A stretch of DNA of 64,000 nucleotides from Bdellovibrionales bacterium (GTDB lineage: Bacteria; Bdellovibrionota; Bdellovibrionia; Bdellovibrionales; UBA1609), in NCBI GenBank assembly GCA_965219095.1, contig CBDCMT010000001.1, forward strand, positions 2,132,892 to 2,196,891, given 5' to 3'. The first letter of the stretch is position 1. Each line of letters begins with the position of its first letter. Below the pieces are notes generated by a model. That model saw nothing but the letters and a program-made list of their open reading frames with translations, made no database searches and was not told where the DNA came from. Both the position numbers and the translations under genes were made by a program. This document shows, piece by piece, positions 2,088 through 64,000 of the stretch.

Positions 2088-2119
2088 CTCACAATACAGT
2101 TTTCTGACTTTATTTTTTC

Positions 2120-2167
2120 GCCTCCTCAAAAGAACCTCCGGGAACCCATAGATTCTTTTGAGGAGGC
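2120..2167. repeat. 48-bp hairpin mini-MITE, copy 1
   Basis: gcctcctcaaaagaa-cctccgggaacccatagat-tcttttgaggaggc, with terminal inverted repeats; related copies at 6704, 19458, 32872, 55924. Confidence 0.85.
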
Positions 2168-2304
2168 ACTTAAAATTAAAAGGATCAAATGTCACATCTA
2201 TCAATAATCGAAACTATTAACTTTTCTTGAGGAAATTTAAAAAGCTTAGGGTGTGTCCTCATTTGCCTAGACCTTTTTCAAGACCTTAGGCGTATTGAAT
2301 ATCT

Positions 2305-2425
2305 GTAAGTCGGTTTCTTAACAGCCCTTGACTTCTGTGGGGAGGATGTTTCTTAGATTTTAAAAGGGTTTTTTTGAAAGAAGTGTAGTCAGTATAAGTT
2401 AGGAGCGGTTTAAAAACCGAGTTAC
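2305..2425. mobile_element. 121-bp IS66-derived MITE
   Basis: Ends gtaagtcggttt / aaaccgagttac; 8-bp direct repeat gaatatct at 2297-2304 and 2426-2433; first ~60 bp match the right end of the IS66 at 21264-23312. Confidence 0.85.
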
Positions 2426-2484
2426 GAATATCTATAAAGATTGTAAAAAGCTCATAACAAAGGGAGGTGTTATGTTAAGAAAAG

Positions 2485-4017
2485 GTAACTGCTCACCTAC
2501 ATTGTTCAGTTATCCTTAACTTTAGACCTGTTTTAAGATAAAAGTCTTGCTCTTACAGATTTTCTTTTAAATACTCTTTTCAAATGACAATAAATAAGAC
2601 CTCCATCAGAAATGAGATTAAAAATATAAGAAGTGACTTTGATAAGTTTGCAAAGAAAGGTTCTGTGCCTACTGAGATTTCTGTGATTGTTGAATCTCTC
2701 TTTAAGGTTGTGAACATTCTGATTGTTGTGCTTTTAGAAAAACAGGTTCGAAAAAATTCCAGCAACAGCGGTCTTCCTCCTTCGCAAGATTTTAGTCGTC
2801 AAGGGAATCGTAATAAGAAAGCTAGTGGGAGTCAGAAAAAGGGCTCTAGACTTGATAACAGTAAAGATACAAAACAGCGAGGAGACTGTCTTTCCCTCAG
2901 AGTGTTCTCAGTGTGGGATGTTTTTAAAGACAGCAGAGGTAAAAAGCCTTGAGAAGCGTAAAAAGATTGATATTTTTTATGAAATTCAGACCCATACTGT
3001 AACTTCTGAAGTTAAGGATTGTCCCTCATGTGGAGCTAGAAATAAAGGTCAATTCCCTAAAGGTATGAGTGGTCCTCTTCAGTATGGTGTAGGCATTAGA
3101 GCTTCCATCATCAATTTCATTATAGTTCAGATGCTGTCTTTTCAACGTGTTGGGGAACATTACATGGGGCTTATAGGTCGAATGATTTCTCCTGCAGTTA
3201 TGTTGAGATACATTGCTGAATTAGGAGAGTTTCTTAAAAGTTGGGAAGAGCAGATGAAAGAAAAGATACTTGAATCAGAGGTCATTCATGTTGATGAGAC
3301 CTCTATGAGGGTTAAGGGTAAAAACTACTGGATTCATACTTATAGTTCAGGAGAATTAGTCTTGCAGTTTCTCCACCTTTCAGGTGGAAGGGAAGCCATA
3401 AAAGATATTGGTCTCTTGGATAGATATGGAGGAGTGCTTGTGCATGATTGTTGGAGTCCTTACTTTTGTTATGATAAGATAACTCATGCTTTGTGTGTGG
3501 CTCACCTTTTGAGAGAGCTTAAATTTATAGAAGAAAGCAATGGATTCAAATGGGCTATAAATCTCAAAAAACTTCTTAAAGAGACTGTGGAGTTAGTTCA
3601 TAAAAAAGAGTCAAGAGTTCTGACTCAAAAAGAGTACGAAACTCTTCAGAGAAGGTATAGGAGTATTCTTACAAAAGGCTTAAAAGAGCTTCCAGAATTT
3701 CCTAAGAAAAATGGCAAGAAAGGACGAATAAAGCATACACAAGCTCAAAACCTTTGGCTGCGATTTAAAAAGTATGAAGCAGAAATACTGTGTTTTGCTA
3801 AAAGAAAGAACGTAGATCCTACTAATAACAGAGCTGAAAGAGATCTAAGAATGACTAAAGTGAAAAAGAAAGTGTCAGGGTGTTTCAGAACAGAAGAAAT
3901 GGCGAAATATTTTTGTCGTATTACCAGCTATGTTAAAACAATGAGAAATAGAGGGTATTCTTCTTTAGAAGCCATCTCTATGGCTTTAAATAAAAACTTA
4001 CGAGAGTGAGCAGTTAC
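2485..4017 (+). mobile_element. IS66-family single-ORF element (ISBst12-like), copy 1; transposase 2584-4009 frameshifted
   Basis: Terminal IR gtaactgctc/gagcagttac; 8-bp TSD aagaaaag; zinc-ribbon CSQC/CPSC, VIHVDET, LVHDCWSPY, PTNNRAERDLR; +1 frameshift near 2875 relative to the intact copy at 40210-41634. Confidence 0.92.
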
Positions 4018-4193
4018 AAGAAAAGTTTTAACAGATTCTATGTGGAAGGATCTGGAAGCTATTATAAGAGAGAAAGGCTGTTATCATTCAGCAAACAATA
4101 GAAATGTTATGGAAGCAATTTTATGGAAATTACGCACAGGCAGTCCGTAGCATGATATTCCTGAACAGTTCTGTCCTTGGAAGACAGCATATA

Positions 4194-5608
4194 ATACCAA
4201 TTACAGAAATTAATTCGACATTTTCATGTTCAAATTTAAAATTTTAAAATTGACTTAAGGAAAAGTTTCAGTTAGGAGGTTTTAAAAAAACTTCTTTTAA
4301 GGTGAGTTTAAGTTTTCATAAGATAAGTTTATTTCAGGTATATCTATTTGTTGTGTAAATCGATTGATGGGTTAAAATAAGTGTAAAAAAGTGAGGGTAA
4401 AATTTAAAATGACAAAAATCAGTTACACAATTTAATTTATAGGTTCAAATTAATTTACAAGCTTGATTCATCTTGTTGTTTTGTCCAAGATCGAGTGCAT
4501 AATTTTTTAATCCTGCCCTCCTGATCGCAAAAAGTATTCCAGGCCTCACAACAAGTATTCACTATATGGTCATAGTTTTTAAAACATGCATTCGATAATT
4601 TGATCCTTCGTAATTGTTGCCAGACTTGTTCCATGGGATTTAATTCTGGACTATAAGGAGGTAAAGGCATCAGGGATAAATTCTTAGGAACTATCAAAGT
4701 CTCTGTGGTATGCCAACTGGCTCTGTCCATTAAAACAATTCCATGATAGTTTTCTTGAATATTTTTAGATATCTCATCTAAGTGAATTTGCATCATCCCT
4801 GAATTACATTCCGGTAAAATCCAAGCACAGCCTTTATCTTTATCCGGACAAACTGCTCCAAAAATATAAGTGGATAAAAATTGTCTTTGTCTCACAACTC
4901 TAGGCCGTGTGCCTTTTCTTGCCCAAATCCTGCTCAAAGAACCTTGCTGAGCTTATTCTGCATTCATCCTGCCACCAAATCTCTATTTTATGAGTCTGAA
5001 TCTTTTCTTTTATTTTCTCCACCTCTTCTGGAAAATGTTCCTTAAACTGTTCCATAGCTTCTTAATGAACTTTTAGGATGAAGAGAACGACCACTGATCC
5101 ATACAATATTAAGGCGGTCTAAAGAAACATAAACCCCAGAAAGAGAATAGCAACAGTTAAATTCATCTGCTAAAAGTTTCTGTATTTCCTTTGCTCCTAT
5201 GCTTCCTCCCTCTCTTTTGTCTTGAATTTCATCTAACTTGATTTTGAAGTTCTCTTCTTCTGTCACTGGCAAACGAGGCTTGCGTCCTCTGCCTTCTCGA
5301 TCTATCAATCCCTCGTAATCAAAGTCTACAAAAAAAGACTGTAACCAGGATTTGATACTGTGACGGTGATACAAAACCATACCTGCTGTTTCTTGAATCG
5401 ATTTTCCTTCTTGCATATGCTGCAAAGCCAATAATTTTGTCTTGATGTTGGCACTTCTTTCTACTTTGTAAGTAGCTAGAAAATTATACCCTTGAATCTG
5501 TGTAACTAAATCTTTTTTCGACATGACTCTAAAAATTTAACAGAGTTTTATCAAAAAGCCAGGACGCAATACGTTAAAAAAATGTCGAATTAATTTTTGG
5601 AAATGGTA
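4194..5608 (-). mobile_element. IS630-family element type 1, copy 1 (split ORFs 5042-5524 and 4455-4937)
   Basis: IRs ataccaattacagaaattaattcgac / gtcgaattaatttttggaaatggta; TA duplication; WWQDE, VLMDRASWH and LPPYSPELNPMEQVW motifs. Confidence 0.92.
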
Positions 5609-5622
5609 TAATCGCTTTAATA

Positions 5623-6664
5623 ACCCGAGTTTCGACTTTTTTCAGGGCTAAAGGCTAGCTAATATAAACAAATACCTCAGACTTTTGTAAGATTTTCTTG
5701 AAAAAGCAACTTACAAGAAAAAACACCTTGAGAGTTATAAAAAAACATACAAGGAGGTCTAAGATGTTTAATTCTAATTATATCATATCAATTTATGTTC
5801 TTGTCGATGATTTTTTAACCCCTCTCATACAGCAGCATCCAGAACTGGTTCCCAAAAATAAAGGAGGTTTTTCTTGTGCTATGTCTCCCAGCGAAATTGT
5901 CACTCTTTATCTTACTTTTCCAAAGTTCTGGCTTTAGGAATTTTAAAGCCTTTTACCAGTTTGCAAAAGTCTATCTTAAATCTTATTTTCCTAAAATGTT
6001 GTCTTACTCCCGATTTGTGAACATCAAAAAAGACATGGCTTTTTTGATGTTTCTTTTCTTGACAAGCCTTATGAGTAAAACCACCGGCATATCATTTATT
6101 GATTCCACATCGATTTTTCTTCAAAAATAAAAGAATAGGACGAAATAAGGTGTTCTAAAAGTTAGCTAAAAAGAGGCAAAAGTAGTATGGACTGGTTCTT
6201 CGGATTTAAACTCCATATTGTTATCAATCACCTAGGAGAACTTTTAAGTTTTACCTTAACTCCGGGAAATGTAGATGATCGAAAGCTAAGTTATGGATTT
6301 ATAGTAAAGGGCTGATGGGAAAACTCTTTGGGGACAAAGGTTATATTTCATCAGACCTTTTCAAAAAGCTTTTAAAGAAGGGAGTTAAGCTTATTACAAA
6401 CGTCAAATTAAATATGGAGAATAAATTGATTCCCTTATTTGACAAGTTGATGTTGAAAAAACGTTCTGTTGTGGAGGTCAGTGATTGGAGTGTTAAAAGG
6501 AGAGTTTCATCTTGAGCATTCTCGCCATCGTAGCCCACAAAACTTTGTCATCAATCTTTTAGGTACTCTCATCTCTTACTTGCTTAAAACCTAAAAAACC
6601 CTCCATTCAACTTAAAACTCAAAACAGGAGCTTCTGAACAATATATAAAAGTCGAAACTCGGGT
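5623..6664 (+). mobile_element. IS982-family element, copy 1 (transposase pseudogene)
   Basis: IRs acccgagtttcgactttt / aaaagtcgaaactcgggt; TSD taata; fragments GISFIDST, WFFGFKLH, KLFGDKGYIS. Confidence 0.88.
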
Positions 6665-6703
6665 TAATAGGTGGGCACAAAAAGGGCTATGGAATGATTT
6701 TTT

Positions 6704-6751
6704 GCCTCCTCAAAAGAACCTCCGGGAACCCACAGATTCTTTTGAGGAGGC
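6704..6751. repeat. 48-bp hairpin mini-MITE, copy 2; marks the truncation point of the IS5
   Basis: gcctcctcaaaagaacctccgggaacccacagattcttttgaggaggc. Confidence 0.85.
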
Positions 6752-19457: not shown

Positions 19458-19492
19458 GCTTTCTCAAAAGAATCTGTGGGTTCCTGGAGGTT
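19458..19492. repeat. Degenerate, partial hairpin mini-MITE copy (reverse orientation)
   Basis: gctttctcaaaagaatctgtgggttcctggaggtt versus reverse-complement consensus gcctcctcaaaagaatctgtgggttcccggaggtt. Confidence 0.7.
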
Positions 19493-19710
19493 TTGTCAGT
19501 TTTCTAATGTTGTGATATAAGGCTTTTTAGAACTTTAGAGGTTCTAAAGCTGTAAGATTTTCTCATAGTGAGTTTTACTTTATAGTTTGACAGACTCCAG
19601 AGTTTATAAATGCCTTCTTTCAATATGTTTCTTGAAAGCTTCTACCTTTAAAGGAGAATTTGCTATCTTCTTAATAAATTCAGAAAAATTTCCTCTTGAA
19701 AATAGACTGT

Positions 19711-21991: not shown

Positions 21992-22050
21992 TTTTTTTAG
22001 ATTATTTTTTTTTAAAATCTTGCAAAACAAAAAAAGACATGTTGACATTA

Positions 22051-23105: not shown

Positions 23106-23409
23106 AGAATAAAGCACAAAGAAAATCAAAATTATGAAAAAAAACTAAGAATTATTCTTTTAAGAACTTCTCTAATACTTTTGTAACGGGGAAGGCCTTA
23201 GGAAAACGTCTTACAACGCCGTTTTACAACAAGATCAATAAAAACTTCTCCTTTAAAATCTAAGAAATATCCTCCTCAGTAGAAGTCAAGGGCTGTTAAG
23301 AAACTGACTTATCGAAAACCCAACCCCCTTTTTTTATATTGAAATAAAGAGGCGATAAGGAATAGGTTTGTCAATAATAGTCAACCTAGACTTCTTGAAT
23401 AAAGTTTAT

Positions 23410-32871: not shown

Positions 32872-32919
32872 GCCTCCTCAAAAGAACCTCCGGGAACCCA
32901 CAGATTCCCGGGAGGAGCC
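32872..32919. repeat. 48-bp hairpin mini-MITE, hybrid-ended copy
   Basis: gcctcctcaaaagaacctccgggaacccacagatt-cccgggaggagcc; right end is the alternative ggctcctcccggg type. Confidence 0.8.
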
Positions 32920-40110: not shown

Positions 40111-41642
40111 GTAACTGCTCACCTACATTGTTCAGTTATCCTTAACTTTAGACCTATTTTAAGATAAAAGTCTTGCTCTTACAGATTTTCTTTTAAATAC
40201 TTTTTTCAAATGACAATAAATAAGACCTCCATCAGAAATGAGATTGAAAATATAAGAAGTGACTTTGATAAGTTTGCAAAGAAAGGTTCTGTGCCTACTG
40301 AGATTTCTGTGGTTTTTGAATCTCTCTTTAAGGTTGTGAACATTCTGATTGCTGTGCTTTTAGAAAAACAGGTTCGAAAAAATTCCAGCAACAGCGGTCT
40401 TCCTCCTTCGCAAGATTTTAGTCGTCAAGGGAATCGTAATAAGAAAGCTAGTGGGAGTCAAAAAAAGGGCTCTAGACTTGATAACAGTAAAGATACAAAC
40501 AGTGAGGAGACTGTCTTTCCCTCAGAGTGTTCTCAGTGTGGGATGTTTTTAAAGACAGCAGAGGTAAAAAGCCTTGAGAAGCGTAAAAAGATTGATATTT
40601 TTTATGAAATTCAGACCCATACTGTAACTTCTGAAGTTAAGGATTGTCCCTCATGTGGAGCTAGAAATAAAGGTCAATTCCCTAAAGGTATGAGTGGTCC
40701 TCTTCAGTATGGTATAGGCATTAGAGCTTCCATCATCAATTTCATTATAGTTCAGATGCTGTCTTTTCAACGTGTTGGGGAACATTACATGGGGCTTATA
40801 GGTCGAATGATTTCTCCTGCAGTTATGTTGAGATACATTGCTGAATTAGGAGAGTTTCTTAAAAGTTGGGAAGAGCAGATGAAAGAAAAGATACTTGAAT
40901 CAGAGGTCATTCATGTTGATGAGACCTCTATGAGGGTTAAGGGTAAAAACTACTGGATTCATACTTATAGTTCAGGAGAATTAGTCTTGCAGTTTCTCCA
41001 CCTTTCAGGTGGAAGGGAAGCCATAAAAGATATTGGTCTCTTGGATAGATATGGAGGAGTGCTTGTGCATGATTGTTGGAGTCCTTACTTTTGTTATGAT
41101 AAGATAACTCATGCTTTGTGTGTGGCTCACCTTTTGAGAGAGCTTAAATTTATAGAAGAAAGCAATGGATTCAAATGGGCTACAAATCTCAAAAAACTTC
41201 TTAAAGAGACTGTGGAGTTAGTTCATAAAAAAGAGTCAAGAGTTCTGACTCAAAAAGAGTACGAAACTCTTCAGAGAAGGTATAGGAGTATTCTTACAAA
41301 AGGCTTAAAAGAGCTTCCAGAATTTCCTAAGAAAAATGGCAAGAAAGGACGAATAAAGCATACACAAGCTCAAAACCTTTGGCTGCGATTTAAAAAGTAT
41401 GAAGCAGAAATACTGTGCTTTGCTAAAAGAAAGAACGTAGATCCTACTAATAACAGAGCTGAAAGAGATCTAAGAATGACTAAAGTGAAAAAGAAAGTGT
41501 CAGGGTGTTTCAGAACAGAAGAAATGGCGAAATATTTTTGTCGTATTACCAGCTATGTTAAAACAATGAGAAATAGAGGGTATTCTTCTTTAGAAGCCAT
41601 CTCTATGGCTTTAAATAAAAACTTACGAGAGTGAGCAGTTAT
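40111..41642 (+). mobile_element. IS66-family single-ORF element (ISBst12-like), copy 2
   Basis: gtaactgctc / gagcagttat ends; 8-bp TSD aatatttt. Confidence 0.92.
40210..41634 (+). CDS. IS66-family transposase, intact 474 aa
   Basis: Uninterrupted ORF with zinc ribbon, VIHVDET, VHDCW and TNNRAERDLR. Confidence 0.9.
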   Translation: MTINKTSIRNEIENIRSDFDKFAKKGSVPTEISVVFESLFKVVNILIAVLLEKQVRKNSSNSGLPPSQDFSRQGNRNKKASGSQKKGSRLDNSKDTNSEETVFPSECSQCGMFLKTAEVKSLEKRKKIDIFYEIQTHTVTSEVKDCPSCGARNKGQFPKGMSGPLQYGIGIRASIINFIIVQMLSFQRVGEHYMGLIGRMISPAVMLRYIAELGEFLKSWEEQMKEKILESEVIHVDETSMRVKGKNYWIHTYSSGELVLQFLHLSGGREAIKDIGLLDRYGGVLVHDCWSPYFCYDKITHALCVAHLLRELKFIEESNGFKWATNLKKLLKETVELVHKKESRVLTQKEYETLQRRYRSILTKGLKELPEFPKKNGKKGRIKHTQAQNLWLRFKKYEAEILCFAKRKNVDPTNNRAERDLRMTKVKKKVSGCFRTEEMAKYFCRITSYVKTMRNRGYSSLEAISMALNKNLRE

Positions 41643-42869
41643 AATATTTTTAGATATCTCATCTAAGTGAATTTGCATCATCCCTGAATTACATTCCGGT
41701 AAAATCCAAGCACAGCCTTTATTTCTATCCGGACAAACTGCTCCAAAAATATAAGTGGATAAAAATTGTCTTTGCCTCACAACTCTAGGCCGTGTGCCTT
41801 TTCTTGCCCAAATCCTGCTCAAAGAACCTTGCTGAGCTTATTCTGCATTCATCCTGCCACCAAATCTCTATTTTATGAGTCTGAATCTTTTCTTTTATTT
41901 TCTCCACCTCTTCTGGAAAATGTTCCTTAAACTGTTCCATAGCTTCTTAATGAACTTTTAGGATGAAGAGAACGACCACTGATCCATACAATATTAAGGC
42001 GGTCTAAAGAAACATAAACCCCAGAAAGAGAATAGCAACAGTCAAATTCATCTGCTAAAAGTTTCTGTATTCCCTTTGCTCCTATGCTTCCTCCCTCTCT
42101 TTTGTCTTGAATTTCATCTAACTTGATTTTGAACCTCTCTTCTTCTGTTACTGGCAAACGAGGCTTGCGTCCTCTGCCTTCTCGATCTATCAATCCCTCG
42201 TAATCAAAGTCTACAAAAAAAGACTGTAACCAGGATTTGATACTGTGACGGTGATACAAAACCATACCTGCTGTTTCTTGAATCGATTTTCCTTCTTGCA
42301 TATGCTGCAAAGCCAATAATTTTGTCTTGATGTTGGCACTTCTTTCTACTTTGTAAGTAGCCAGAAAATCATACCCTTGAATCTGTGTAACTAAATCTTT
42401 TTTCGACATGACTCTAAAAATTTAACAGAGTTTTATCAAAAAGCCAGGACGCAATGAGTTAAAAAAATGTCGAATTAATTTTTGGAAATGGTATAACTTC
42501 CGTCGATGGACACCCGCTCTGTATCAACTTCTTCTTGTAAAGTAAAAAAAAATCATTCCATAACCCTTTTTGTACCCACCTATTAAAGCGATTATATGCT
42601 CTCTTCCAAGGACAGAACTGTTCAGGAATATCACGCCACGGACTGCCTGTACGTAATTTCCATAAAATTGCTTCCATAACATTTCTATTGTTTGCTGAAT
42701 GATAACAGCCTTTCTCTCTTATAATAGCTTCCAGATCCTTCCACATAGAATCTGTTAAAACTTTTCTTAACATAACACCTCCCTTTGTTATGAGCTTTTT
42801 ACAATCTTTATAAATATTCAACACGGCTAAGGTCTTGAAAAAGGTCTAGGCAAATAAGGACATGCCCTA

Positions 42870-43021
42870 GAAGAACTTCTCTAATACTTTTGTAACGGGG
42901 AAGGCCTTAGAAAAACGTCTTACAGGCTCGTTTTACAACAAGATCAATAAAAACTTCTCCTTTAAAATCTAAGAAATATTTCCCTCGTAGGAGTCAAGGG
43001 CTGTTAAGAAACCCGACTTAC
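42870..43021 (+). mobile_element. Right-end fragment of the classical IS66
   Basis: Near-identical to 23163-23312; ends in gacttac. Confidence 0.8.
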
Positions 43022-50985: not shown

Positions 50986-51869
50986 AATAACTGATCTTTA
51001 AGCTGTGGGCTAGAGTAATGAGAGTTGGTAGTTACGCCTTTTTGAATATCTGATGTAGTCTCATGCTTTTTTTTTAGAAATTGATTTAAGTCTTTTTGTG
51101 TTTTTATGACAGCATTTTCAGGTATCTTTGTATGATCTGGTATGTTTAACTCATTTCCGATAAAACAAAATTTTCCTATTTTTACGTTTTCTCCCACTTT
51201 AGTATTTTTTCCAATTATAGCTTGATAACCAATGAGGGAGTTTTTTTTAACATGAACTCCTGCATAGATTTGGGCTCTTTGTTGTATGAAGCAGTGATTT
51301 TCAATATGAACCCCAGGCCCTAAGCCAGCAAAACCTCCTATGAGAACATAATCCCCAATGGTTATAGGATAAGTCATAAGAGTTTTTGTTTTAGGAAATA
51401 GGGTTGTGGCAAGAATAGCATCTTCTCCAATAAGGCTTTCTTTTCCAATAGAGACAAAATAAGGCTCAAAAATTTTTACACTGGATGTAATCCATGAACT
51501 AGGGTGGATTTTAGCTTGAAAGGTGCGTAAAATAAGAAAACGGATAGGATCTGAAATAAAAAAAAGTTTTTGGAAGAATAAAGCATAAACTCCGTAAAGA
51601 TTTCTTTTCAAACCCCATTGAAGCATAAGAAGAGAATTGAAATTATCATATTCTCCTGGAGAAGGTTTTTTAATAAGATAATTTAAAACCCCATAAAAGG
51701 CCAGTAAGAAAAAAGGAGACATAACAAAAGCTAAAGGCACAGCCCACAGGAGGTTTTCGGAAAAGAGCATAAGAGATAAATAGAAAGGTAGCCAGAGTAC
51801 CAGGAAGGTAAGAAATAAAAGAACTAGGAATAGGCTTACACATAAAAATGACACACAAAGATCATACAC
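50961..51869 (-). CDS. Membrane-anchored left-handed beta-helix acyltransferase-like protein, copy 1 (C-terminus supplied by the IS1634 IR)
   Basis: Two N-terminal TMs; PGEY..W..LRTFQAKI..VSIGKESLIGEDAIL..ITIGDYVLIG hexapeptide repeats; last codons LSLPFQI* come from the IR. Confidence 0.75.
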   Translation of the reverse strand: MYDLCVSFLCVSLFLVLLFLTFLVLWLPFYLSLMLFSENLLWAVPLAFVMSPFFLLAFYGVLNYLIKKPSPGEYDNFNSLLMLQWGLKRNLYGVYALFFQKLFFISDPIRFLILRTFQAKIHPSSWITSSVKIFEPYFVSIGKESLIGEDAILATTLFPKTKTLMTYPITIGDYVLIGGFAGLGPGVHIENHCFIQQRAQIYAGVHVKKNSLIGYQAIIGKNTKVGENVKIGKFCFIGNELNIPDHTKIPENAVIKTQKDLNQFLKKKHETTSDIQKGVTTNSHYSSPQLKDQLFLSLPFQI

Positions 51870-51945
51870 AAGGATTTTTTATATTGTATAGATTTTTTTT
51901 TATTGACTTATAGGCAGTCCTTTTTTAGACTTACGCACAATACCT

Positions 51946-54045
51946 ATGTCTAGTTTAGAAGAAAATCCCTTACTCATACCCTCAAACCTGAAAAAAGGTG
52001 CTGTGCGTTTTGATAAGATTAAAGCAGAACACTTTATGCCTGCCCTTGAGCAGTTGTGCAAGGAGGCTCAAGTAAAATTTTTAAAAATTATGGAACATAA
52101 AAAAAAGCCCAGCTATGAAAACACCATTAAACCTTACGACCAAATTATTCACTCTTTTGATATAATTTCTGGAGTTTTCTATCAACTGTACGCAGCTGCT
52201 AATTCTTCTGAACTTTCTGAAATCATGCTTTCTTTCACTTCAGGTCTACAAAAAATGTTCCTTACAATAAAGAATCCTCAGTTTTTTAAAAGGGTAGAGG
52301 CTATTTATAAAGATGAAATGGAAAGAAACTCCTTAAACCATGAAGAACTTCGCTATTTAGATTTACTCTATGAGAGATTAGCTTTCGAAGGAGCTCTGCT
52401 TTCAGAAGAAAGCTGTAAAAAACTTATGGATACAAACGATGAAATAGAACTTTTAGGCAAGAAGTTTTTTCAAAACATAATTGAGTTTCGAGAAAGGTTT
52501 CGGTTTCAGGTAACTGATAAAGAAGCTCTAGAAGGCATTCCTGAAGGCTATGTTTTAGAAGCTAAAAGATTAGCAGAAAAGGAAAAAGAAGAAGGCTGGA
52601 TTTTTACTTCTTTAGAGACAAGCTATTTACCTTTTCTAGCTTATTGCAAAAGAAGAGAGCTAAGAGAAAAGTTTTTTAAAATTATGTCCTTCCGAAACTA
52701 TAATGGTGAACTTGACAATTCTGAAATTGTACTCAAAATCATTGATTTGAGATTAAAAAAAGCTAAGCTTTTAGGTTTTTCAAATTACTCTGAATATAAG
52801 CTCAGAGAAAGTATGGCAAAATCCCCTCATAACGTGACTTCATTTTTGGAAAATCTATTAAAAGTTTTTCGTCCTAAAGCTTTAAAAGAACTCAAAGAGG
52901 TGAAAGACTTAGCTTTAAAAGAAGATGGCATTGAAGATTTTCAGTATTGGGATTTAGACTATTATTCAGAAAAACTAATGAAAAAGAAATTTGATATGAA
53001 CACTCAAGAACTAGGAAAACTAAGAGAGTACTTCCCTTTAGAGAAGAGCTTAAAGGGGCTTTTTGAACATGCTAAGAGGCTCTATGATTTAGAATTCAAA
53101 AAAACGAAAAACTATCCTGTCTACGAAGAAACTGTGAAAGTTTATGAAGTTTATCGTAAAGGTGATTATAGAGGGCTTCTTTATTTGGATTTATTCTCAA
53201 GAAATAAAAAATCACAAGGAGCTTGGGCGATTCGCTTTAAACCACAAGGAAGTGATTTTTTAGGAACGAGAAGTTTTTGTCATGCTGTGATTTGCTGTAA
53301 TTTTTCCAAACCTAATAAGGATAAACCTAGTCTTCTTACATTAGATGATGTGCGAATTCTTTTTCATGAGTTTGGTCATGCTCTTCATAATATTTTGTCT
53401 GATTGCAAAATGAGTTCTCTTTCAGGCAGTTCTGTTTTTATAGATTTTATAGAACTTCCTTCTCAAATTATGGAAAACTGGATTTATGAAAAAGAAAGCT
53501 TACAGCTTATCTCAGAACATTATGAAACAGCAAAACCCTTGCCTGATGATTTGTTCGAAAAAGTTAAAGGTCAATTACAGTTTCAATCCGGTATATATTG
53601 TTTAAGGGAACTTTCTTTGGGACTTCTAGATATGGCTTGGCATAATCTTTCTGATTTACCCGATATTTCACTTTTAGAATTTGAAGCTAAAGCAACAAAA
53701 AAAGCTCAGTTATTAGCTCCTTTAGAAAAATCTTTTTTTCCCCTCCATTCCCCCCATTTCTTTTATATATTTTCTGGAGGCCATGATTCAGCATACTACG
53801 GCTATAAATGGGCTGAAGTTTTAGGTGCAGATGCTTATAAAATGTTTCAAGAAGAGGGGATTTTCAACAAGGAAGTGGCTGAAAGGTTTAGAGATTCTAT
53901 TTTAAGTCGAGGCAATACAGAAGATCCTTTAACTCTTTATAAAAGATTTAGAAAAAGAGAGCCTGATATAAGTGCTTTTTTAGAAAGAAAAAGTTTAGTT
54001 TTAGAAAAAAAGCCTCTTAAAAAAGTTTCTGAAAAGACAAATTAG
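51946..54045 (+). CDS. M3-family metallopeptidase (oligopeptidase A / Dcp-like), copy 1
   Basis: LFHEFGHALH (HExxH), DFIELPSQIMENW, KQGAW-like SQGAW, YYGYKWAEVL, FRKREPD. Confidence 0.92.
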   Translation: MSSLEENPLLIPSNLKKGAVRFDKIKAEHFMPALEQLCKEAQVKFLKIMEHKKKPSYENTIKPYDQIIHSFDIISGVFYQLYAAANSSELSEIMLSFTSGLQKMFLTIKNPQFFKRVEAIYKDEMERNSLNHEELRYLDLLYERLAFEGALLSEESCKKLMDTNDEIELLGKKFFQNIIEFRERFRFQVTDKEALEGIPEGYVLEAKRLAEKEKEEGWIFTSLETSYLPFLAYCKRRELREKFFKIMSFRNYNGELDNSEIVLKIIDLRLKKAKLLGFSNYSEYKLRESMAKSPHNVTSFLENLLKVFRPKALKELKEVKDLALKEDGIEDFQYWDLDYYSEKLMKKKFDMNTQELGKLREYFPLEKSLKGLFEHAKRLYDLEFKKTKNYPVYEETVKVYEVYRKGDYRGLLYLDLFSRNKKSQGAWAIRFKPQGSDFLGTRSFCHAVICCNFSKPNKDKPSLLTLDDVRILFHEFGHALHNILSDCKMSSLSGSSVFIDFIELPSQIMENWIYEKESLQLISEHYETAKPLPDDLFEKVKGQLQFQSGIYCLRELSLGLLDMAWHNLSDLPDISLLEFEAKATKKAQLLAPLEKSFFPLHSPHFFYIFSGGHDSAYYGYKWAEVLGADAYKMFQEEGIFNKEVAERFRDSILSRGNTEDPLTLYKRFRKREPDISAFLERKSLVLEKKPLKKVSEKTN

Positions 54046-54095
54046 TTGCAACATAACTGACTTTTTCCATATAATAACCCGAGTTTCGACTTTTA
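54046..54095 (-). repeat. Orphan 3' tip of the SH3/beta-barrel gene plus an IS982 terminal repeat
   Basis: 54046-54076 is the reverse complement of 61203-61233; acccgagtttcgactttta at 54077. Confidence 0.8.
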
Positions 54096-55233: not shown

Positions 55234-56322
55234 TATACCTTCTCTGAAGAGTTTCGTACTCTTTTTGAGTCAGAACTCTTGACTCTTTTTTATGAACTAA
55301 CTCCACAGTCTCTTTAAGAAGTTTTTTGAGATTTGTAGCCCATTTGAATCCATTGCTTTCTTCTATAAATTTAAGCTCTCTCAAAAGGTGAGCCACACAC
55401 AAAGCATGAGTTATCTTATCATAACAAAAGTAAGGACTCCAACAATCATGCACAAGCACTCCTCCATATCTATCCAAGAGACCAATATCTTTTATGGCTT
55501 CCCTTCCACCTGAAAGGTGGAGAAACTGCAAGACTAATTCTCCTGAACTATAAGTATGAATCCAGTAGTTTTTACCCTTAACCCTCATAGAGGTCTCATC
55601 AACATGAATGACCTCTGATTCAAGTATCTTTTCTTTCATCTGCTCTTCCCAACTTTTAAGAAACTCTCCTAATTCAGCAATGTATCTCAACATAACTGCA
55701 GGAGAAATCATTCGACCTATAAGCCCCATGTAATGTTCCCCAACACGTTGAAAAGACAGCATCTGAACTATAATGAAATTGATGATGGAAGCTCTAATGC
55801 CTATACCATACTGAAGAGGACCACTCATACCTTTAGGGAATTGACCTTTATTTCTAGCTCCACATGAGGGACAATCCTTAACCTCAGAAGTTACAGTATG
55901 GGTCTGAATTTCATAAAAAATATGGCTCCTCCCGGGAACCCACAGATTCTTTTGAGGAGGCAAAAATATCAATCTTTTTACGCTTCTCAAGGCTTTTTAC
56001 CTCTGCTGTCTTTAAAAACATCCCACACTGAGAACACTCTGAGGGAGAGACAGTCTCCTCACTGTTTGTATCTTTACTGTTATCAAGTCTAGAGCCCTTT
56101 TTTTGACTCCCACTAGCTTTCTTATTACGATTTCCTTGACGACTAAAATCTTGCGAAGGAGGAAGACCGCTGTTGCTGGAATTTTTTCGAACCTGTTTTT
56201 CTAAAAACACAACAATCAGAATGTTCACAACCTTAAAGAGAGATTCAACAATCACAGAAATCTCAGTAGGCACAGAACCTTTCTTTGCAAACTTATCAAA
56301 GTCACTTCTTATATTTTCAATT
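55234..56322 (-). pseudogene. ISBst12-like IS66 copy 3; both ends lost, interrupted by the 38-bp element
   Basis: Reverse complement of ~40243-41283 with an insertion at 55924-55961. Confidence 0.9.
55924..55961. mobile_element. 38-bp hairpin mini-MITE with 8-bp target-site duplication
   Basis: ggctcctcccgggaacccacagattcttttgaggaggc flanked by aaaaatat at 55916-55923 and 55962-55969; the empty site is present in IS66 copies 1 and 2. Confidence 0.9.
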
Positions 56323-56430
56323 CTTTTGCCTCTAGTTTTTAGTTGAAGGAGTTATACACAGGTTTTAGGTTGTTTCTGTGGCCCCGGCCCATTTTACAAG
56401 TTTGCAAAAGTTGTTTAGCCTTTTTAAAGA

Positions 56431-60379: not shown

Positions 60380-61262
60380 TCTTTTTATCTTTTTGGCGTT
60401 TTTTTATTTTCCTTTGACAGGCACTTCAGAAAAAAGACTTTCTTCTACGAGAATTCAATGGGCTTTAGTAAGTGTAGAAAAAGCTACTGTTTACAAATAT
60501 GCTAATTTTGATTCCCCTGTGATTCATCATTTTAAATATAGCGAAAAAATTCTTATTACAATGAAACTTTATAAAGGAGTGGGAGGGTTTGGTACATTTT
60601 ATAAAACAAAGCTTAAAAATAAAAAAATAGGTTATATTACTGATATTGAAGTCATCCCACAATACATCAGAGTAGGAGATCATTTAAGACCTAATAAAGA
60701 ATTTCAAGAGTTTGGACTCAGAGAGAGGACAAAACATTTGGAGGATATTTACTTAAGTCGATATTTAGGTGTCTCTAGTAGCTGGGTGGGTTTAACAGAA
60801 AAATGGGGAAAAAAGTCATTTACAAAGTTTGTTTCTTTCTTTGGTTTTAGATTAACAGGGCCTAAATTTATTTCAGAACAATTCCCTTGGGATTTAGAAG
60901 TTTTGATCAATCCTTTTTTGCCAAGCTACTATAAAGATATTCCCTTGAAAGACATTCAAACTGTAATAGATCATTCGGGGTTTCACCTTCAATCTTCACT
61001 GGTTTTTAATATACCTCTTTCTCAAACCATTTTTCGCCTCATATATGCCGGCTTAGGACCTTGTTTTTTCTTTAGAAACATAGGGCTTGAAACCTCTAAA
61101 AACAAATCTTATCATCTTAAACATCTTCGTCTAGGTATGGTTCTACAGTTTGGTCTAGCCTACCGCCTTTCTGAAAATTACCTTATACGTGTGGAGGGAC
61201 GCTATTATATGGAAAAAGTCAGTTATGTTGCAACTAATTTGTCTTTTCAGAAACTTTTTTAA
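60348..61262 (+). CDS. SH3-domain protein with probable C-terminal outer-membrane beta-barrel
   Basis: ATVYKYANFDSPVI..GTFYKTKL..KIGYITDIEV (bacterial SH3-like); alternating beta strands ending in Phe; start codon uncertain. Confidence 0.6.
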   Translation: MEDLVVQGRINLFIFLAFFYFPLTGTSEKRLSSTRIQWALVSVEKATVYKYANFDSPVIHHFKYSEKILITMKLYKGVGGFGTFYKTKLKNKKIGYITDIEVIPQYIRVGDHLRPNKEFQEFGLRERTKHLEDIYLSRYLGVSSSWVGLTEKWGKKSFTKFVSFFGFRLTGPKFISEQFPWDLEVLINPFLPSYYKDIPLKDIQTVIDHSGFHLQSSLVFNIPLSQTIFRLIYAGLGPCFFFRNIGLETSKNKSYHLKHLRLGMVLQFGLAYRLSENYLIRVEGRYYMEKVSYVATNLSFQKLF

Positions 61263-63321
61263 GAGGCTTTTTTTCTAAAACTAAACCTTCTCTTTCTAAA
61301 AGAGCCCTTATATCAGGCTCTCTTTTTCTAAATCTTTTATAAAGAGTTAAAGGATCTTCTGTATTGCCTCGGCTTAAAATAGAATCTCTAAACCTTTCAG
61401 CCACTTCCTTGTTGAAAATCCCCTCTTCTTGAAATATTTTATAAGCATCTGCATCTAAAACTTCAGCCCATTTATAGCCGTAGTATCCTGAATCATAGCC
61501 CCCAGAAAATATATGAGCGAAATGGCAGGAAGAAGAAGATTTTTTCAAAGGAGCTAATAACTGAGCTTTTTTTGTTGCTTTAGCTTCAAAATCTTCTAAA
61601 AGTGAAATATCAGGTAAATCAGAAAGGTTATGCCAAGCCATATCTAGGAACCCGAAAGAAAGTTGCCTTAAACAACGTATACCGGATTGAAACTGTAATT
61701 GACCTTTAATTTTTGCAAACAAATCATCAGGCAAGGGTTTTGCTGTTTCATAATGTTCTGAGATAAGCTGTAAGCTTTCTTTTTCGTAAATCCAGTTTTC
61801 CATAATTTGAGAAGGAAGTTCTACAAAATCTATAAAAACAGCAGTGCCTGAAAGAGAACTCATTTTGCAATCAGACAAAATATCATGGAGGGCATGACCA
61901 AACTCATGAAAAAGGGTTCGCACATCATTTTGTGTAAGAAGACTAGGTTTACTCTTACTAGGTTTTGGAAAATTACAGCAAATCAGGGCATGACAAAAAC
62001 TTCTCGTTCCTAAAAAATCACTTCCTTGTGGCTTAAAGCGAGTCTTCCAAGCTCCTTGTGATTTTGTATCTCTTGAAAATAAATCCAAATAAAGAAGCCC
62101 TCTATAATCACCTTTACGATAAACTTCATAAACTTTCACAGTTTCTTCGTAGACAGGATAGTTTTTCGTTTTTTTGAATTCTAAATCATAAAGTCTCTTA
62201 GCATGTTCAAAAAGACCCTCTAAGCTCTTCTCTAAGGGGAAGTACTCTCTTAGTTTTTGAGTGTCTATATCAAATTTCTTTTTCATCAGTTTGTCTGAAT
62301 AATAGTTTAAATCCCAATACTGAAAATCTTCAATGCCATCTTCTTTTAAAGCTAAGTCCTTTACCTCTTTGAGTTCTTTTAAAGCTTTAGGACGGTAGGC
62401 TTTTAGTAGATTCTCCAAAAATGAGATCACTTTATGAGGAGATTTTGCCATACTTTTTTTGAGCTTATACTCAGAGTAATTTGAAAAACCTAAAAGCTTA
62501 GCTTTTTTTAATCTCAAATCAATGATTTTGAGTACAATTTCAGAATTGTCAAATTCATCCTTATAATTTCGACAGGATATAAGTTTAAAAAACTTTTTTC
62601 TTAGATCTCTTCTTTTGCAATAATATAGAAAAGGCACATAGCTTGCTCTTAAAGAAGTAAAAGCCCAACCTTCTTTTTTTTCCTTTTCTGCTAATTTTTT
62701 AGCTTCTAAAACACAGTCTTCAGGCAAGCCTTCTAGGGCTTTTTTATCAGTTAAATAAAAACGAAAACTTTCCTGAAACTTAATTAAGTTTTGAGAAAAC
62801 TGGTTGCCTAAAAGTTCTATTTCCTCGTCTGTATCCATAAGTTTTTTACGATTTTCTTCTGAAAGCAGAGTTCCCTCGAGAACTAATCTCTCATAGAGTA
62901 AATCTAAGTAGCGAAGCTCTTCATGGTTTAAGGAGTTCCTTTCCATCTCATTTTTATAAACAGTTTCTATTTTTCTAAAAAACTGGGGATTCTTGTTCAT
63001 CGCAGAGAAGGTTTTTTCCAAAAGAGGGCTGAAGGTTAGCATGGTTTCAGAAAGATCAGAAGAGTGAACAGCTGAGTGCAATTGATAGGAAACACTAACA
63101 ATTGTATCAAAAGAATGGAAGATCTGATTGTAAGGTTTAATGGTGTTTTCATAATTAGGCTGTTTTTCGTGTTCTATAATTTTTGCAAATTTTACTTGAG
63201 CCTCCTTGCACAACTGCTCAAGGGCAGGCATAAAGTGTTCTGCTTTAATCTTATCAAAACGCACAGCACCTTTTTTCAGGTTTGAGGGTATGAGTAAGGG
63301 ATTTTCTTCTAAACTAGACAT
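61234..63321 (-). CDS. M3-family metallopeptidase, copy 2 (native context)
   Basis: LFHEFGHALH, DFVELPSQIMENW, HIFSGGYDSGYYGYKWAEVLDADA. Confidence 0.92.
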   Translation of the reverse strand: MSSLEENPLLIPSNLKKGAVRFDKIKAEHFMPALEQLCKEAQVKFAKIIEHEKQPNYENTIKPYNQIFHSFDTIVSVSYQLHSAVHSSDLSETMLTFSPLLEKTFSAMNKNPQFFRKIETVYKNEMERNSLNHEELRYLDLLYERLVLEGTLLSEENRKKLMDTDEEIELLGNQFSQNLIKFQESFRFYLTDKKALEGLPEDCVLEAKKLAEKEKKEGWAFTSLRASYVPFLYYCKRRDLRKKFFKLISCRNYKDEFDNSEIVLKIIDLRLKKAKLLGFSNYSEYKLKKSMAKSPHKVISFLENLLKAYRPKALKELKEVKDLALKEDGIEDFQYWDLNYYSDKLMKKKFDIDTQKLREYFPLEKSLEGLFEHAKRLYDLEFKKTKNYPVYEETVKVYEVYRKGDYRGLLYLDLFSRDTKSQGAWKTRFKPQGSDFLGTRSFCHALICCNFPKPSKSKPSLLTQNDVRTLFHEFGHALHDILSDCKMSSLSGTAVFIDFVELPSQIMENWIYEKESLQLISEHYETAKPLPDDLFAKIKGQLQFQSGIRCLRQLSFGFLDMAWHNLSDLPDISLLEDFEAKATKKAQLLAPLKKSSSSCHFAHIFSGGYDSGYYGYKWAEVLDADAYKIFQEEGIFNKEVAERFRDSILSRGNTEDPLTLYKRFRKREPDIRALLEREGLVLEKKPLKKVSEKTN

Positions 63322-63397
63322 AGGTATTGTGCGTAAGTCTAAAAAAGGACTGCCTATAAGTCAATAAAAAAAAATCTATACAATATAAAAAATCCTT

Positions 63398-64000
63398 GTG
63401 TATGATCTTTGTGTGTCATTTTTATGTGTAAGCCTATTCCTAGTTCTTTTATTTCTTACCTTCCTGGTACTCTGGCTACCTTTCTATTTATCTCTTATGC
63501 TCTTTTCCGAAAACCTCCTGTGGGCTGTGCCTTTAGCTTTTGTTATGTCTCCTTTTTTCTTACTGGCCTTTTATGGGGTTTTAAATTATCTTATTAAAAA
63601 ACCTTCTCCAGGAGAATATGATAATTTCAATTCTCTTCTTATGCTTCAATGGGGTTTGAAAAGAAATCTTTACGGAGTTTATGCTTTATTCTTCCAAAAA
63701 CTTTTTTTTATTTCAGATCCTATCCGTTTTCTTATTTTACGCACCTTTCAAGCTAAAATCCACCCTAGTTCATGGATTACATCCAGTGTAAAAATTTTTG
63801 AGCCTTATTTTGTCTCTATTGGAAAAGAAAGCCTTATTGGAGAAGATGCTATTCTTGCCACAACCCTATTTCCTAAAACAAAAACTCTTATGACTTATCC
63901 TATAACCATTGGGGATTATGTTCTCATAGGAGGTTTTGCTGGCTTAGGGCCTGGGGTTCATATTGAAAATCACTGCTTCATACAACAAAGAGCCCAAATC
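63398..64000 (+). CDS. Membrane LbH acyltransferase-like protein, copy 2 (runs off the window)
   Basis: Reverse complement of 51267-51869; no differences seen in the segments compared. Confidence 0.8.
   Translation, partial: MYDLCVSFLCVSLFLVLLFLTFLVLWLPFYLSLMLFSENLLWAVPLAFVMSPFFLLAFYGVLNYLIKKPSPGEYDNFNSLLMLQWGLKRNLYGVYALFFQKLFFISDPIRFLILRTFQAKIHPSSWITSSVKIFEPYFVSIGKESLIGEDAILATTLFPKTKTLMTYPITIGDYVLIGGFAGLGPGVHIENHCFIQQRAQI

What the first reader, a model, noticed from the sequence alone, without database searches (positions are those of the whole stretch)
55916..55969. A 38-bp mobile hairpin inserted into a transposase gene: an extremely small MITE family
Seen: IS66 copy 3 reads cataaaaaatat-[ggctcctcccgggaacccacagattcttttgaggaggc]-aaaaatatc, whereas copies 1 and 2 have only cataaaaaatatc. 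This is a 38-bp insertion with an 8-bp duplication (aaaaatat). Relatives of 48 bp lie at 2120, 6704 and 32872, with a degenerate one at 19458. Two end types (gcctcctcaaaagaa and ggctcctcccgggaa) are combined differently among copies. Established: MITEs are non-autonomous, carry terminal IRs and create TSDs; typical bacterial MITEs are several-fold longer. Inference: this is an active minimal transposon made almost entirely of its two ends. It is mobilised in trans by an 8-bp-TSD transposase not in this window (IS1595-, IS1- or IS66-like are candidates).
Basis: partly seen in the sequence, partly recalled or inferred. Interest (0 to 1): 0.72.

Follow-up and report, generated by a model that had tools for sequence, protein, structure and literature searches.

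The report
Tiny mobile palindromic repeat family
A 38-48 bp GC-rich palindromic repeat, with five copies in this window and probably of the order of 100 in the genome, has recently copied itself into a dead transposase gene with an 8-bp duplication, so it is as small as a REP repeat but inserted like a miniature transposon.

Summary
IS66-family copy 3 carries 46 extra bases relative to copies 1 and 2. These are a 38-mer (55924-55961) plus a second copy of AAAAATAT. The window has three 48-bp relatives (2120, 6704, 32872) and one degenerate copy (19458). Two 15-nt arm types, X and Y, are combined differently among copies.

Contig depths in public runs that hold this genome suggest about 8-15 copies of the exact 38-mer. 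The whole family is probably around 100 or more. It was not found in JGI metagenomes, viral contigs, plasmids, phages or the nearest relative's syntenic locus.

- Only D of the five window copies has a duplication.
- D is a poor hairpin (z -0.8), whereas the 48-mers fold strongly.
- AAAAATAT or an A-tract recurs beside many other copies, so the "TSD" reflects a strong target preference or belongs to the unit.
- No IS in the window has X- or Y-like ends. The local IS66-type element does make 8-bp duplications, but its ends are unrelated.

Best reading (about 0.45): a REP-sized, MITE-like non-autonomous element that is integrated into A-tracts by a staggered-cut transposase encoded elsewhere. 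ISL3-like is a lead. The main rival is a REP/RAYT-type single-strand mechanism.

The parts
55924..55961 (+). Copy D: 38-mer, Y arm (GGCTCCTCCCGGGAA) + CCCACAGA + X' arm (TTCTTTTGAGGAGGC), inserted in IS66-family copy 3
   Evidence: An exact 38-nt unitig is present in runs X1 and X2 at 62.5x and 45.9x, against about 4-6x for unique sequence.
55916..55923 (+). Left copy of the duplicated 8-mer AAAAATAT
   Evidence: alignment. The read joint 55915->55962 has 8 letters that fit both sides.
55962..55969 (+). Right copy of the duplicated 8-mer AAAAATAT
55234..56327 (-). IS66-family copy 3. It is a fragment lacking both termini, corresponding to about 126-1175 of the 1532-bp element. The transposase frame is broken near codon 130 by the 46-bp insertion.
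   Evidence: Self-BLAST, ORF list, Pfam DDE_Tnp_IS66 on the intact copy.
2970..2977 (-). Empty site (single AAAAATAT) in IS66-family copy 1
40595..40602 (-). Empty site (single AAAAATAT) in IS66-family copy 2, whose 474-aa transposase ORF is intact
2120..2167 (+). Copy A: 48-mer X..X' with a perfect 15-bp stem. It lies 61 nt after the stop of the 3'-truncated AcrB-type gene, at the left edge of an IS pile. Left flank is ttattttttc.
   Evidence: (dG -15.2, z -6.8).
6704..6751 (+). Copy B: 48-mer X..X', differing from A at 1 nt. It sits at the right edge of the same IS pile. On its left is the internal T-run (frameshift site) of a truncated IS5-type element. On its right is the terminus of another repeat that starts at 6752.
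32872..32919 (+). Copy C: 48-mer X..Y', a hybrid of the two arm types with no flanking duplication. It lies 172 nt upstream of a RidA-type gene.
19458..19504 (-). Copy E: degenerate copy on the minus strand. The left arm is decayed or lost, and the X'-like arm is followed by AAAAATAT.
   Evidence: A 5.3-kb contig of run X1 covers it without any difference.

Best explanation
This is a lineage-specific family of REP-sized, MITE-like non-autonomous elements. Each copy is two 15-nt inverted arms (types X and Y) around an 8-18 nt centre.

Shown:
- The family has many copies.
- The 38-mer form is itself multi-copy.
- One copy entered an IS66-type transposase gene after that IS had multiplied, adding 38 bp plus an exact 8-bp direct duplication of an A-tract target (AAAAATAT).

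Inferred:
- Integration uses a staggered 8-bp cut and gap repair. That implies a DDE-type transposase supplied in trans from outside this window, with a strong preference for A5-6T tracts.
- The arms are its terminal inverted repeats.
- An ISL3-family enzyme is the best lead. ISL3 ends start GGCTCTTC, against GGCTCCTC for the Y arm, and ISL3 makes 8-bp A/T-tract duplications.
- Hybrid arm combinations (X..Y', Y..X') and the absence of duplications around A, B, C and E are put down to recombination, deletion and IS insertion between and beside copies in this very IS-rich genome.
For: - The 46-bp gap consists of the 38-mer plus an exact 8-bp repeat, with two empty paralogous sites that are 97.5-99.9% identical around it.
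- Arms: 15/15 complementary in A and B, 10/15 in D.
- No ORF can fit in 38-48 bp.
- Copy number. Unique sequence of this genome has word depth about 3.7-7. The exact 38-mer unitig has 62.5 and 45.9. X + partial-Y words have 70-85. An X'+AAAA word has 120. Each reference catches 50-63 different contigs.
- Another Y-type copy has a different left flank...cattaaagattaa|ggctcctc.
- Another copy lies about 25 nt inside an IS66-type right end, at that end's T-run.
- A/T-tract flanks. AAAA starts at 2.9% of window positions, but at least 3 A follow X' in all six run-X1 contigs that have a flank.
- AAAAATAT also follows X' in E and in a 1.7-kb contig.
- ISL3 examples from the literature: ISArsp7 has IR GGCTCTTCGCGG... 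and an 8-bp DR; ISPst2 has DRs TTTTTAAA and CAAAAAAG (PMC6305408).
- The nearest relative keeps the AcrB/RluB spacer at 91 nt with no hairpin and no IS. The elements are therefore gains in this lineage.
Against: - Only 1 of 5 window copies has a duplication.
- No IS with X- or Y-like termini is in the window. No ISL3, IS1595, IS1 or IS256 transposase is there either.
- At 38 bp, the element is well below the 70-300 bp that PMC3733652 gives for bacterial MITEs.
- From general knowledge of paired-end transposition complexes, a 38-bp duplex is too stiff to bring its two ends together. Such an element would need cruciform extrusion or an unusual complex.
- The recurrence of the same 8-mer beside several copies could mean that it belongs to the mobile unit. 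In that case the event was not a simple staggered-cut insertion.
- The ISL3 resemblance is 7 of 8 bases plus the TSD length, which is weak.
- D's junctions were not recovered from public contigs.
Confidence: 0.45

Rival explanations
1. This is a REP-type element. The palindromes are recognised as folded single strands and are cut and rejoined by an HUH tyrosine transposase (RAYT / IS200-IS605 type) encoded elsewhere. The A-tract plus T next to the arm is the enzyme's cleavage or target motif. The apparent 8-bp duplication arises because the target motif and the element's own 3' tail are the same sequence.
For: - Its size (38-48 nt) is in or near the REP range of 20-40 bp (PMC3733652).
- It is GC-rich (52-63%) in a 34% GC genome.
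- It is high-copy and mostly intergenic, and lies downstream of convergent genes in the AcrB/RluB spacer.
- Both X..X' and, from a contig, Y..Y' perfect palindromes exist. The arms therefore co-vary at 5 positions and keep the stem.
- One polar A5-6T motif is attached to one end in A, B, D, E and many contigs.
- IS termini abut copies, as is reported for REPs (joints 6751->14422, 6752->12259; PMC3733652).
- A 38-nt unit is physically easy for a single-strand mechanism.
Against: - There is no GTAG or CGTC tag at either end, although that tag defines the two REP super-families in PMC3733652.
- No Y1 transposase is encoded in the window.
- From general knowledge, Y1 transposases make no target duplication, yet D has an exact 8-bp one.
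- The copy that demonstrably moved (Y..X') is a poor hairpin (z -0.8).
- The A-run beside B and beside D is demonstrably target DNA: R's own T9 run and IS66's own A6 run.
Confidence: 0.25
2. No transposase is involved. The 38-mer was copied into IS66 copy 3 by replication template switching or short-patch conversion from another genomic copy that was already flanked by (T)AAAAAATAT ... AAAAATAT. The A-tract acted as microhomology on both sides, which by itself produces the direct repeat.
For: - Donor-like copies exist. A 453-nt contig matches 55914-55966 (taaaaaatat|Y..X'|aaaaa) with 5 mismatches in a non-IS66 context. A 60-nt contig matches from 55917. Contigs carry X'+aaaaatat+other sequence.
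- The mosaic arm structure (a partial Y inside X..X', hybrids C and D) looks like the template-switch editing typical of quasi-palindromes (inference).
Against: - It does not explain how about 100 dispersed copies arose in the first place.
- From general knowledge, homology of 8-11 nt is very short for conversion.
- The exactness of the junctions fits transposition at least as well.
Confidence: 0.12
3. The true target duplication is the dinucleotide TA (IS630/Tc1 style). The unit would be T+38-mer+AAAAA, mobilised by one of the very abundant IS630-family transposases. The other 6 duplicated bases would be coincidence.
For: - The empty site reads cataaaaaa-TA-tc.
- IS630-family elements of two kinds are very abundant: about 50-60 copies by depth, and at least 3 full copies in the window.
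- X'+AAAAA+TA recurs in D, E and at least 3 contigs.
Against: - Both IS630-type elements have ends (CCATTTCCAAAAATTAATTCG, TAGTGCTTCCGCTTAGG) unrelated to X and Y.
- The bases between the nearest TA and the arms differ in every copy (t, ttttttc, ttc; aaaaa, act, ctttt, aa). There are therefore no fixed termini.
- TA is too frequent in a 34% GC genome to carry weight.
- The required 6-nt coincidence has a probability of roughly 0.5% (estimate frequencies).
Confidence: 0.07
4. The 46-bp insertion in IS66 copy 3 is an assembly or consensus artefact.
For: No Logan contig of runs X1-X3 spans 55917-55923, or 55962 onward joined to the 38-mer.
Against: - This genome is covered at only about 4x in those runs. 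A 4x path between a ~230x and a >1000x repeat is exactly what graph cleaning removes, and the tool states that contigs show presence, not absence.
- The exact 38-mer exists in reads as a multi-copy unitig.
- An artefact would not be expected to create an exact 8-bp direct repeat of the local sequence.
Confidence: 0.03

Closest known systems
Bacterial MITEs (for example NEMIS/Correia, RUP, ERIC, Nezha)
   Same: Coding-free, multi-copy, terminal inverted repeats of about 15 nt. One insertion has a direct target duplication and a matching empty site. No transposase of its own.
   Different: - 38-48 bp, against the 70-300 bp given in PMC3733652. There is almost nothing between the two arms.
- A duplication was found in only 1 of 5 copies.
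- No parent IS with matching ends is known.
- Two interchangeable arm types exist.
REP / REPIN elements mobilised by RAYT (IS200/IS605-type tyrosine transposases)
   Same: Size class, GC-rich palindrome, high copy number, mainly extragenic, lying between convergent genes, IS termini abutting copies, stem kept by co-varying arms.
   Different: No GTAG or CGTC tag. No RAYT was seen in the window. An exact 8-bp duplication at the one datable insertion. The inserted form is a poor hairpin.
ISL3-family insertion sequences, as a possible source of the transposase
   Same: 8-bp duplications rich in A/T runs (TTTTTAAA, CAAAAAAG for ISPst2). Ends begin GGCTCTTC in ISArsp7 (PMC6305408), against GGCTCCTC for the Y arm.
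   Different: Only 7 of 8 terminal bases match. The X arm begins GCCTCCTC. No ISL3 transposase was seen in the window, and the rest of the genome could not be read.
IS66-family element of this genome (single-ORF, 1532 bp)
   Same: Makes 8-bp A/T-rich duplications (AATATTTT, AAGAAAAG) and is very abundant, at about 50 copies by depth.
   Different: Its terminal repeats, GTAACTGCTCAC..., share nothing with the X or Y arms. In the cases seen it is the target of the insertion, not the donor.
Rickettsia palindromic elements (RPE)
   Same: Palindromic repeats that spread in a reduced, host-associated-looking, AT-rich genome and can land inside genes.
   Different: From general knowledge, RPEs are about 100-150 bp. 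They are CGTC-tagged (PMC3733652) and are often in frame within functional ORFs. Here the insertion adds 46 bp, shifts the frame and sits in a dead IS fragment.

Membership tests
MITE | Terminal inverted repeats | tested here: met
   15-nt arms: 15/15 complementary in A and B, 10/15 (Y against X) in D, and X against Y' in C.
MITE | Direct target-site duplication flanking copies | tested here: inconclusive
   D has an exact 8 bp with two empty paralogous sites. A, B, C and E have none. Complete flank pairs of the other genomic copies could not be read.
MITE | No coding capacity, multi-copy | tested here: met
   38-48 bp. Five copies in 64 kb. Unitig depths are 8-25x the unique depth for individual words.
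MITE | Autonomous IS with matching ends in the same genome | tested here: inconclusive
   None in the window (IS ends read).
MITE | Usual size (70-300 bp according to PMC3733652) | tested here: not met
   38 and 48 bp.
REP (RAYT-associated) | Short (20-40 bp) GC-rich imperfect palindrome, high copy, mainly extragenic | tested here: met
   Four of the five copies are intergenic. The 48-mer is slightly above the range.
REP (RAYT-associated) | Conserved GTAG (or CGTC) tetranucleotide at one end | tested here: not met
   Neither tetranucleotide is found at or next to either end of any copy.
REP (RAYT-associated) | RAYT gene flanked by the repeats | not testable with these tools
   The window ORFs scanned against Pfam contain no Y1 transposase. 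The rest of the genome is unavailable.
REP (RAYT-associated) | Insertion without target duplication | tested here: not met
   D is flanked by an exact 8-bp repeat, unless that 8-mer is part of the unit.
ISL3-derived element | 8-bp duplication, A/T-rich | tested here: met
   AAAAATAT. Compare the ISPst2 DRs in PMC6305408.
ISL3-derived element | Ends matching an ISL3 element, and an ISL3 transposase in the genome | tested here: inconclusive
   GGCTCCTC against GGCTCTTC (7 of 8), taken from one published example. No PF01610-type ORF was found in the window. The genome was not searchable.
IS66-mobilised element | Ends resembling IS66 terminal repeats | tested here: not met
   GTAACTGCTCAC against GGCTCCTCCCGG / GCCTCCTCAAAA.

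The most novel reading that the evidence does not exclude
This would be a new class of minimal mobile DNA: a 38-bp element that is nothing but two transposase-binding arms. It would integrate site-selectively into A5-6TAT tracts with an 8-bp staggered cut. Because a 38-bp duplex cannot loop, it presumably does so through an extruded cruciform or hairpin intermediate. That would bridge REP-type hairpin recognition and DDE-type, TSD-forming integration, and would set a new lower size limit for transposable DNA.
Probability: 0.15. Interest if true: 0.8.

Novelty: new variant of a known kind. Interest (0 to 1): 0.5.

Why it matters
- If the 8-bp duplication is a true transposition footprint, this is about half the size of the smallest commonly described bacterial MITEs. 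It would show that two 15-nt ends with 8 nt between them are enough for mobilisation, which constrains how the responsible transposase pairs the ends.
- It would blur the line between REPs (hairpin, no TSD) and MITEs (TIR plus TSD).
- The family marks the recent history of a deeply branching, IS-swamped Bdellovibrionota-like genome. Its nearest relative (55% identity in RNase R) has neither the repeats nor the IS load at the syntenic locus.
- Practically, the arms are a compact candidate substrate for a trans-mobilisation assay once the cognate enzyme is found.

Tried and rejected
- **Genome-collection scan.** The 18-mer core was too short for 596 Gb. It returned 27 chance hits (L001-L027, to be ignored) and used the only scan.
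- **Two JGI metagenome scans.** One used the core with both arm types, the other used both arms with any 8-18 nt loop. Both found 0. The viral contig scan also found 0. Plasmid and phage BLAST found no match.
- **Rfam on the whole window.** No family was matched.
- **Fetching the rest of the genome through exact-protein look-ups.** The window's own 2.397-Mb contig is not indexed.
- **Protein search with the six-frame peptides of the repeat,** to catch copies inside ORFs. Nothing reached E<=10. The matches are too short.
- **Laying contigs on the IS66 right end,** to recover both junctions of a second IS66 insertion. The 24-nt match was too short to be laid.
- **A reading I had to drop.** I first read the contig depths as a 35-50x main strain plus a low-depth second strain, and inferred strain polymorphism at B and C. 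One search showed that unique sequence is at about 4x. The 35-85x stretches are repeats and the 2-8x contigs are other loci of the same genome, so the polymorphism claim was dropped.
- **Rejected ideas:**
  - Intrinsic terminator: the T-run lies 5' of the hairpin in A and B.
  - Retroposon-like poly(A) tail: the A-runs beside B and D are target DNA.
  - CRISPR repeat: there is no array.
  - A and B as ends of a composite transposon: there is no duplication around 2120..6751.
- **Literature search for a paper on this genome.** Nothing was found.

Full report
**1. What is in the sequence**

At 55916-55969 the window reads aaaaatat-GGCTCCTCCCGGGAACCCACAGATTCTTTTGAGGAGGC-aaaaatat. The surrounding DNA is a fragment of an IS66-family element. 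Pfam DDE_Tnp_IS66 hits the intact 474-aa ORF of copy 2 and the 394-aa ORF of copy 1.

Two other copies of that element lie in the window, at 2485-4016 and 40111-41641. A three-way alignment shows a single 46-column gap in both of them. The 95 aligned flanking bases are otherwise identical apart from 1 nt.

The extra DNA in copy 3 is therefore the 38-mer plus a second AAAAATAT. The insertion breaks the transposase frame near codon 130. Copy 3 was already a torso without either terminus.

Identity between copy 3 and the other two is 97.5-99.9%. The insertion therefore post-dates the spread of this IS.

**2. The family**

Searches with the arms and with a small profile recover exactly five copies in 64 kb:

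| Copy | Coordinates | Form |
|---|---|---|
| A | 2120-2167 | 48-mer, X..X' |
| B | 6704-6751 | 48-mer, X..X' |
| C | 32872-32919 | 48-mer, X..Y' |
| D | 55924-55961 | 38-mer, Y..X' |
| E | 19458-19504, minus strand | degenerate |

- The two end types are variants of the same length. X is GCCTCCTC-AAAA-GAA and Y is GGCTCCTC-CCGG-GAA.
- D is Y + CCCACAGA + X'.
- The 48-mers are X + CCTCCGGGAA (a Y arm lacking its first four bases and one C) + CCCACAGA + X' (or Y' in C).
- A contig loose end, GGCTCCTC|ccgggaacccacagattcccgggaggagcc, indicates that a perfect Y..Y' 38-mer also exists.

Folded as single-stranded DNA:

| Copy | dG (kcal/mol) | z-score |
|---|---|---|
| A and B | -15 to -19 | -6 to -8 |
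| C | -10.2 | -3.2 |
| D | -5.5 | -0.8 (no better than shuffled sequence) |
| E | does not fold | |

The elements are 52-63% GC in a 34% GC window.

**3. Abundance and distribution**

Four coded public runs (X1-X4, one study) hold this genome. Unique parts of the window have contig word depth of only about 3.7-7 in X1 and X2, and about 1 in X4.

| Sequence | Word depth |
|---|---|
| IS66- and IS630-type elements | about 230-290 (about 50-60 copies each) |
| Exact 38-nt D unitig | 62.5 (X1), 45.9 (X2) |
| Words of the X + partial-Y side | 70-85 |
| Word made of the core plus AAAA | 120 |

Each reference catches 50-63 different contigs. Summed depths over the core overcount, because short unitigs overlap. 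I therefore give only orders of magnitude: roughly 8-15 copies of the exact 38-mer. The family is probably about 100-200 in all, which agrees with the window density of 5 per 64 kb in a 2.397-Mb contig.

Nothing similar was found in any of the following:
- JGI metagenome contigs, two scans.
- IMG/VR viral contigs.
- PLSDB plasmids and GenBank phages.
- Rfam.

The organism is a deep Bdellovibrionota-like lineage. The named best hits of its RNase R are Bdellovibrionales/Oligoflexia at about 45% identity, and the nearest sequence is 55% identical. That relative keeps the same gene order (AcrB -> <- RluB, DsbD, 2OG oxygenase, RNase R). Its spacer is 91 nt and contains neither a palindrome nor an IS. 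In the window the same spacer (2060-6887) holds A, a 4.5-kb pile of nested ISs, and B.

**4. Flanks**

D is the only copy with a direct repeat. The other four have none:
- A: ttattttttc | acttaaaatt.
- B: gatttttt | aataaattt.
- C: cccctattc | ctttttata.
- E has none either.

B is instructive:
- Its left flank is an IS5-type element (DUF4096) that loses homology to its paralogue (42547-43021) exactly inside that element's own T9 run.
- Its right flank starts another repeat at 6752. That repeat is present about 12 times and is elsewhere preceded by unrelated DNA.
- B therefore sits at rearrangement breakpoints, so its flanks are no longer original.

E has lost or decayed its left arm.

Across the genome, the outer side of the X' arm is followed by A-runs:
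- All six run-X1 contigs that have a readable flank begin with at least 3 A.
- Further contigs in X2 and X3 show aa, aaa, aaaaa and aaaaat.
- AAAA starts at only 2.9% of window positions.

The full 8-mer AAAAATAT follows X' in D, in E and in a 1.7-kb contig. Two more contigs match 7 of 8 bases. A 453-nt contig reproduces taaaaaatat|Y..X'|aaaaa in a non-IS66 context. The 8-mer occurs 36 times in 128 kb of two strands, so this recurrence is not chance.

For B and D the run is demonstrably target DNA: R's own T-run and IS66's own A6. I therefore read it as a target preference. I cannot exclude that a short A5-6T tail travels with the element.

Other copies lie directly against IS termini (joints 6751->14422, 6752->12259, 6753->14423). 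One lies about 25 nt inside an IS66-type right end, at its T-run.

**5. Mechanism**

The only direct mechanistic trace is the exact 8-bp duplication. By established knowledge of DDE transposition, that is what a staggered cut followed by gap repair leaves. On this basis I rank a MITE-like, trans-mobilised element first, at about 0.45.

*Which transposase?*
- The window holds these IS types:
  - IS66-type, both single-ORF and canonical.
  - Two IS630-type elements.
  - IS5-type.
  - IS4-type.
- None of them has X- or Y-like ends.
- The local IS66-type element does duplicate 8 bp of A/T-rich target. AATATTTT is seen where copy 2 split an IS630 copy, and AAGAAAAG around copy 1. Its ends, GTAACTGCTCAC, are unrelated.
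- A lead recalled from memory and partly checked in the literature is the ISL3 family. It makes 8-bp duplications that are often A/T runs, and some members start GGCTCTTC (PMC6305408), against GGCTCCTC for the Y arm. This is a lead, not a test.

*Against the DDE reading:*
- The element is far smaller than described MITEs.
- A 38-bp duplex cannot bend to pair its ends.
- Four of five copies lack duplications.

*Rivals:*
- The main rival (0.25) is a REP/RAYT-type single-strand mechanism. It suits the size, GC-richness, stem co-variation and polar A-tract motif. The missing GTAG/CGTC tag and the duplication count against it.
- A transposase-free templated insertion that uses the A-tract as microhomology (0.12) explains D but not the family.
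- A TA-duplication reading under IS630 (0.07) and an assembly artefact (0.03) are unlikely.

**6. What could not be settled**

D's own junctions were not recovered from the runs. With about 4x coverage, contigs instead of reads, and a 4x path between two high-copy repeats, this says nothing either way. The 46-base "skip" seen in every run is the paralogous empty IS66 copies, not an allele.

The rest of the genome, where a cognate transposase would be, was out of reach. A genome-wide census of flanks and transposase ends is the decisive step.

**7. Verdict**

"An active minimal transposon" is a reasonable reading but is not yet demonstrated.

What is shown is one recent insertion with an 8-bp duplication, a marked preference for A5-6T(AT) tracts, and a mosaic, recombining set of arms.

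It is best filed as a new variant between REPs and MITEs. Interest is moderate now. It would be high if the census confirms TSD-forming transposition of a 38-bp unit.

Noticed in passing
window 2060-6887; L028 6573-6663: The whole stretch from hairpin A through nested IS66-type, IS630-type, IS5-type and a further IS to hairpin B fills what is a 91-nt spacer between convergent AcrB-type and RluB-type genes in the nearest relative. The AcrB-type ORF here ends at profile position 983 of 1021, so its 3' end was clipped by the pile.
   Followed up: partly
window 40111-41641 within 39537-42496; 2485-4016 within 2426-4195: The single-ORF IS66-type element (1532 bp, ends GTAACTGCTCAC) is nested in an IS630-type copy with the duplication AATATTTT, and in an IS5-type copy with AAGAAAAG. 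By contig depth, both IS types are present at about 50-60 copies per genome.
   Followed up: yes
window 55938-55972, against run X5 (soil metagenome): A 151-nt, 2x contig of an unrelated soil metagenome matches 35 nt exactly: the loop, the X' arm and 11 nt of the IS66 flank (aaaaatatcaa). Its outer sequence on both sides is unrelated and partly GC-rich. It may be a chimera, contamination or a distant carrier. This is unexplained.
   Followed up: no
run X6 (organism B), against window 55932-55966: A sample labelled as a different organism holds a 168-nt contig with the same hairpin copy and the same flank (tatcataaccttggaaaactgccagaacct|ccggg...) as runs X3 and X4. The same or a very close bacterium therefore occurs with a second host or sample type.
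   Followed up: no
window 6751-6753, joined to 12259, 13476 and 14422/14423 in contigs: Elsewhere in the genome, hairpin X' ends directly abut the termini of the IS4-type and the second IS630-type element. The hairpin flanks and IS ends attract each other, as is reported for REPs as IS targets.
   Followed up: partly
window 51267-54076 and 61203-64000: An inverted duplication of 2.8 kb at 92% identity, carrying two M3-peptidase genes (699 and 695 aa).
   Followed up: no
window 42547-42824 (minus) and 2426-2484 + 4018-4195 + 6664-6703: An IS5-type element (DUF4096 N-terminal ORF) has a T9 run at the likely programmed-frameshift site. Hairpin B is joined exactly inside this run.
   Followed up: partly
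window 14628-19190 (minus): A 1520-aa ORF combines DUF4011, superfamily-1 helicase domains (AAA_11/AAA_12) and a C-terminal MTES_1575/DUF559 nuclease-like domain. Hairpin E lies about 270 nt upstream of it.
   Followed up: no
window 21300-23311: Remnant of a second, canonical IS66-type element (TnpB_IS66 ORF 21629-21991 and a truncated DDE_Tnp_IS66 ORF 22425-23105). Its end fragment recurs at 2305-2377 and 42871-43020.
   Followed up: no
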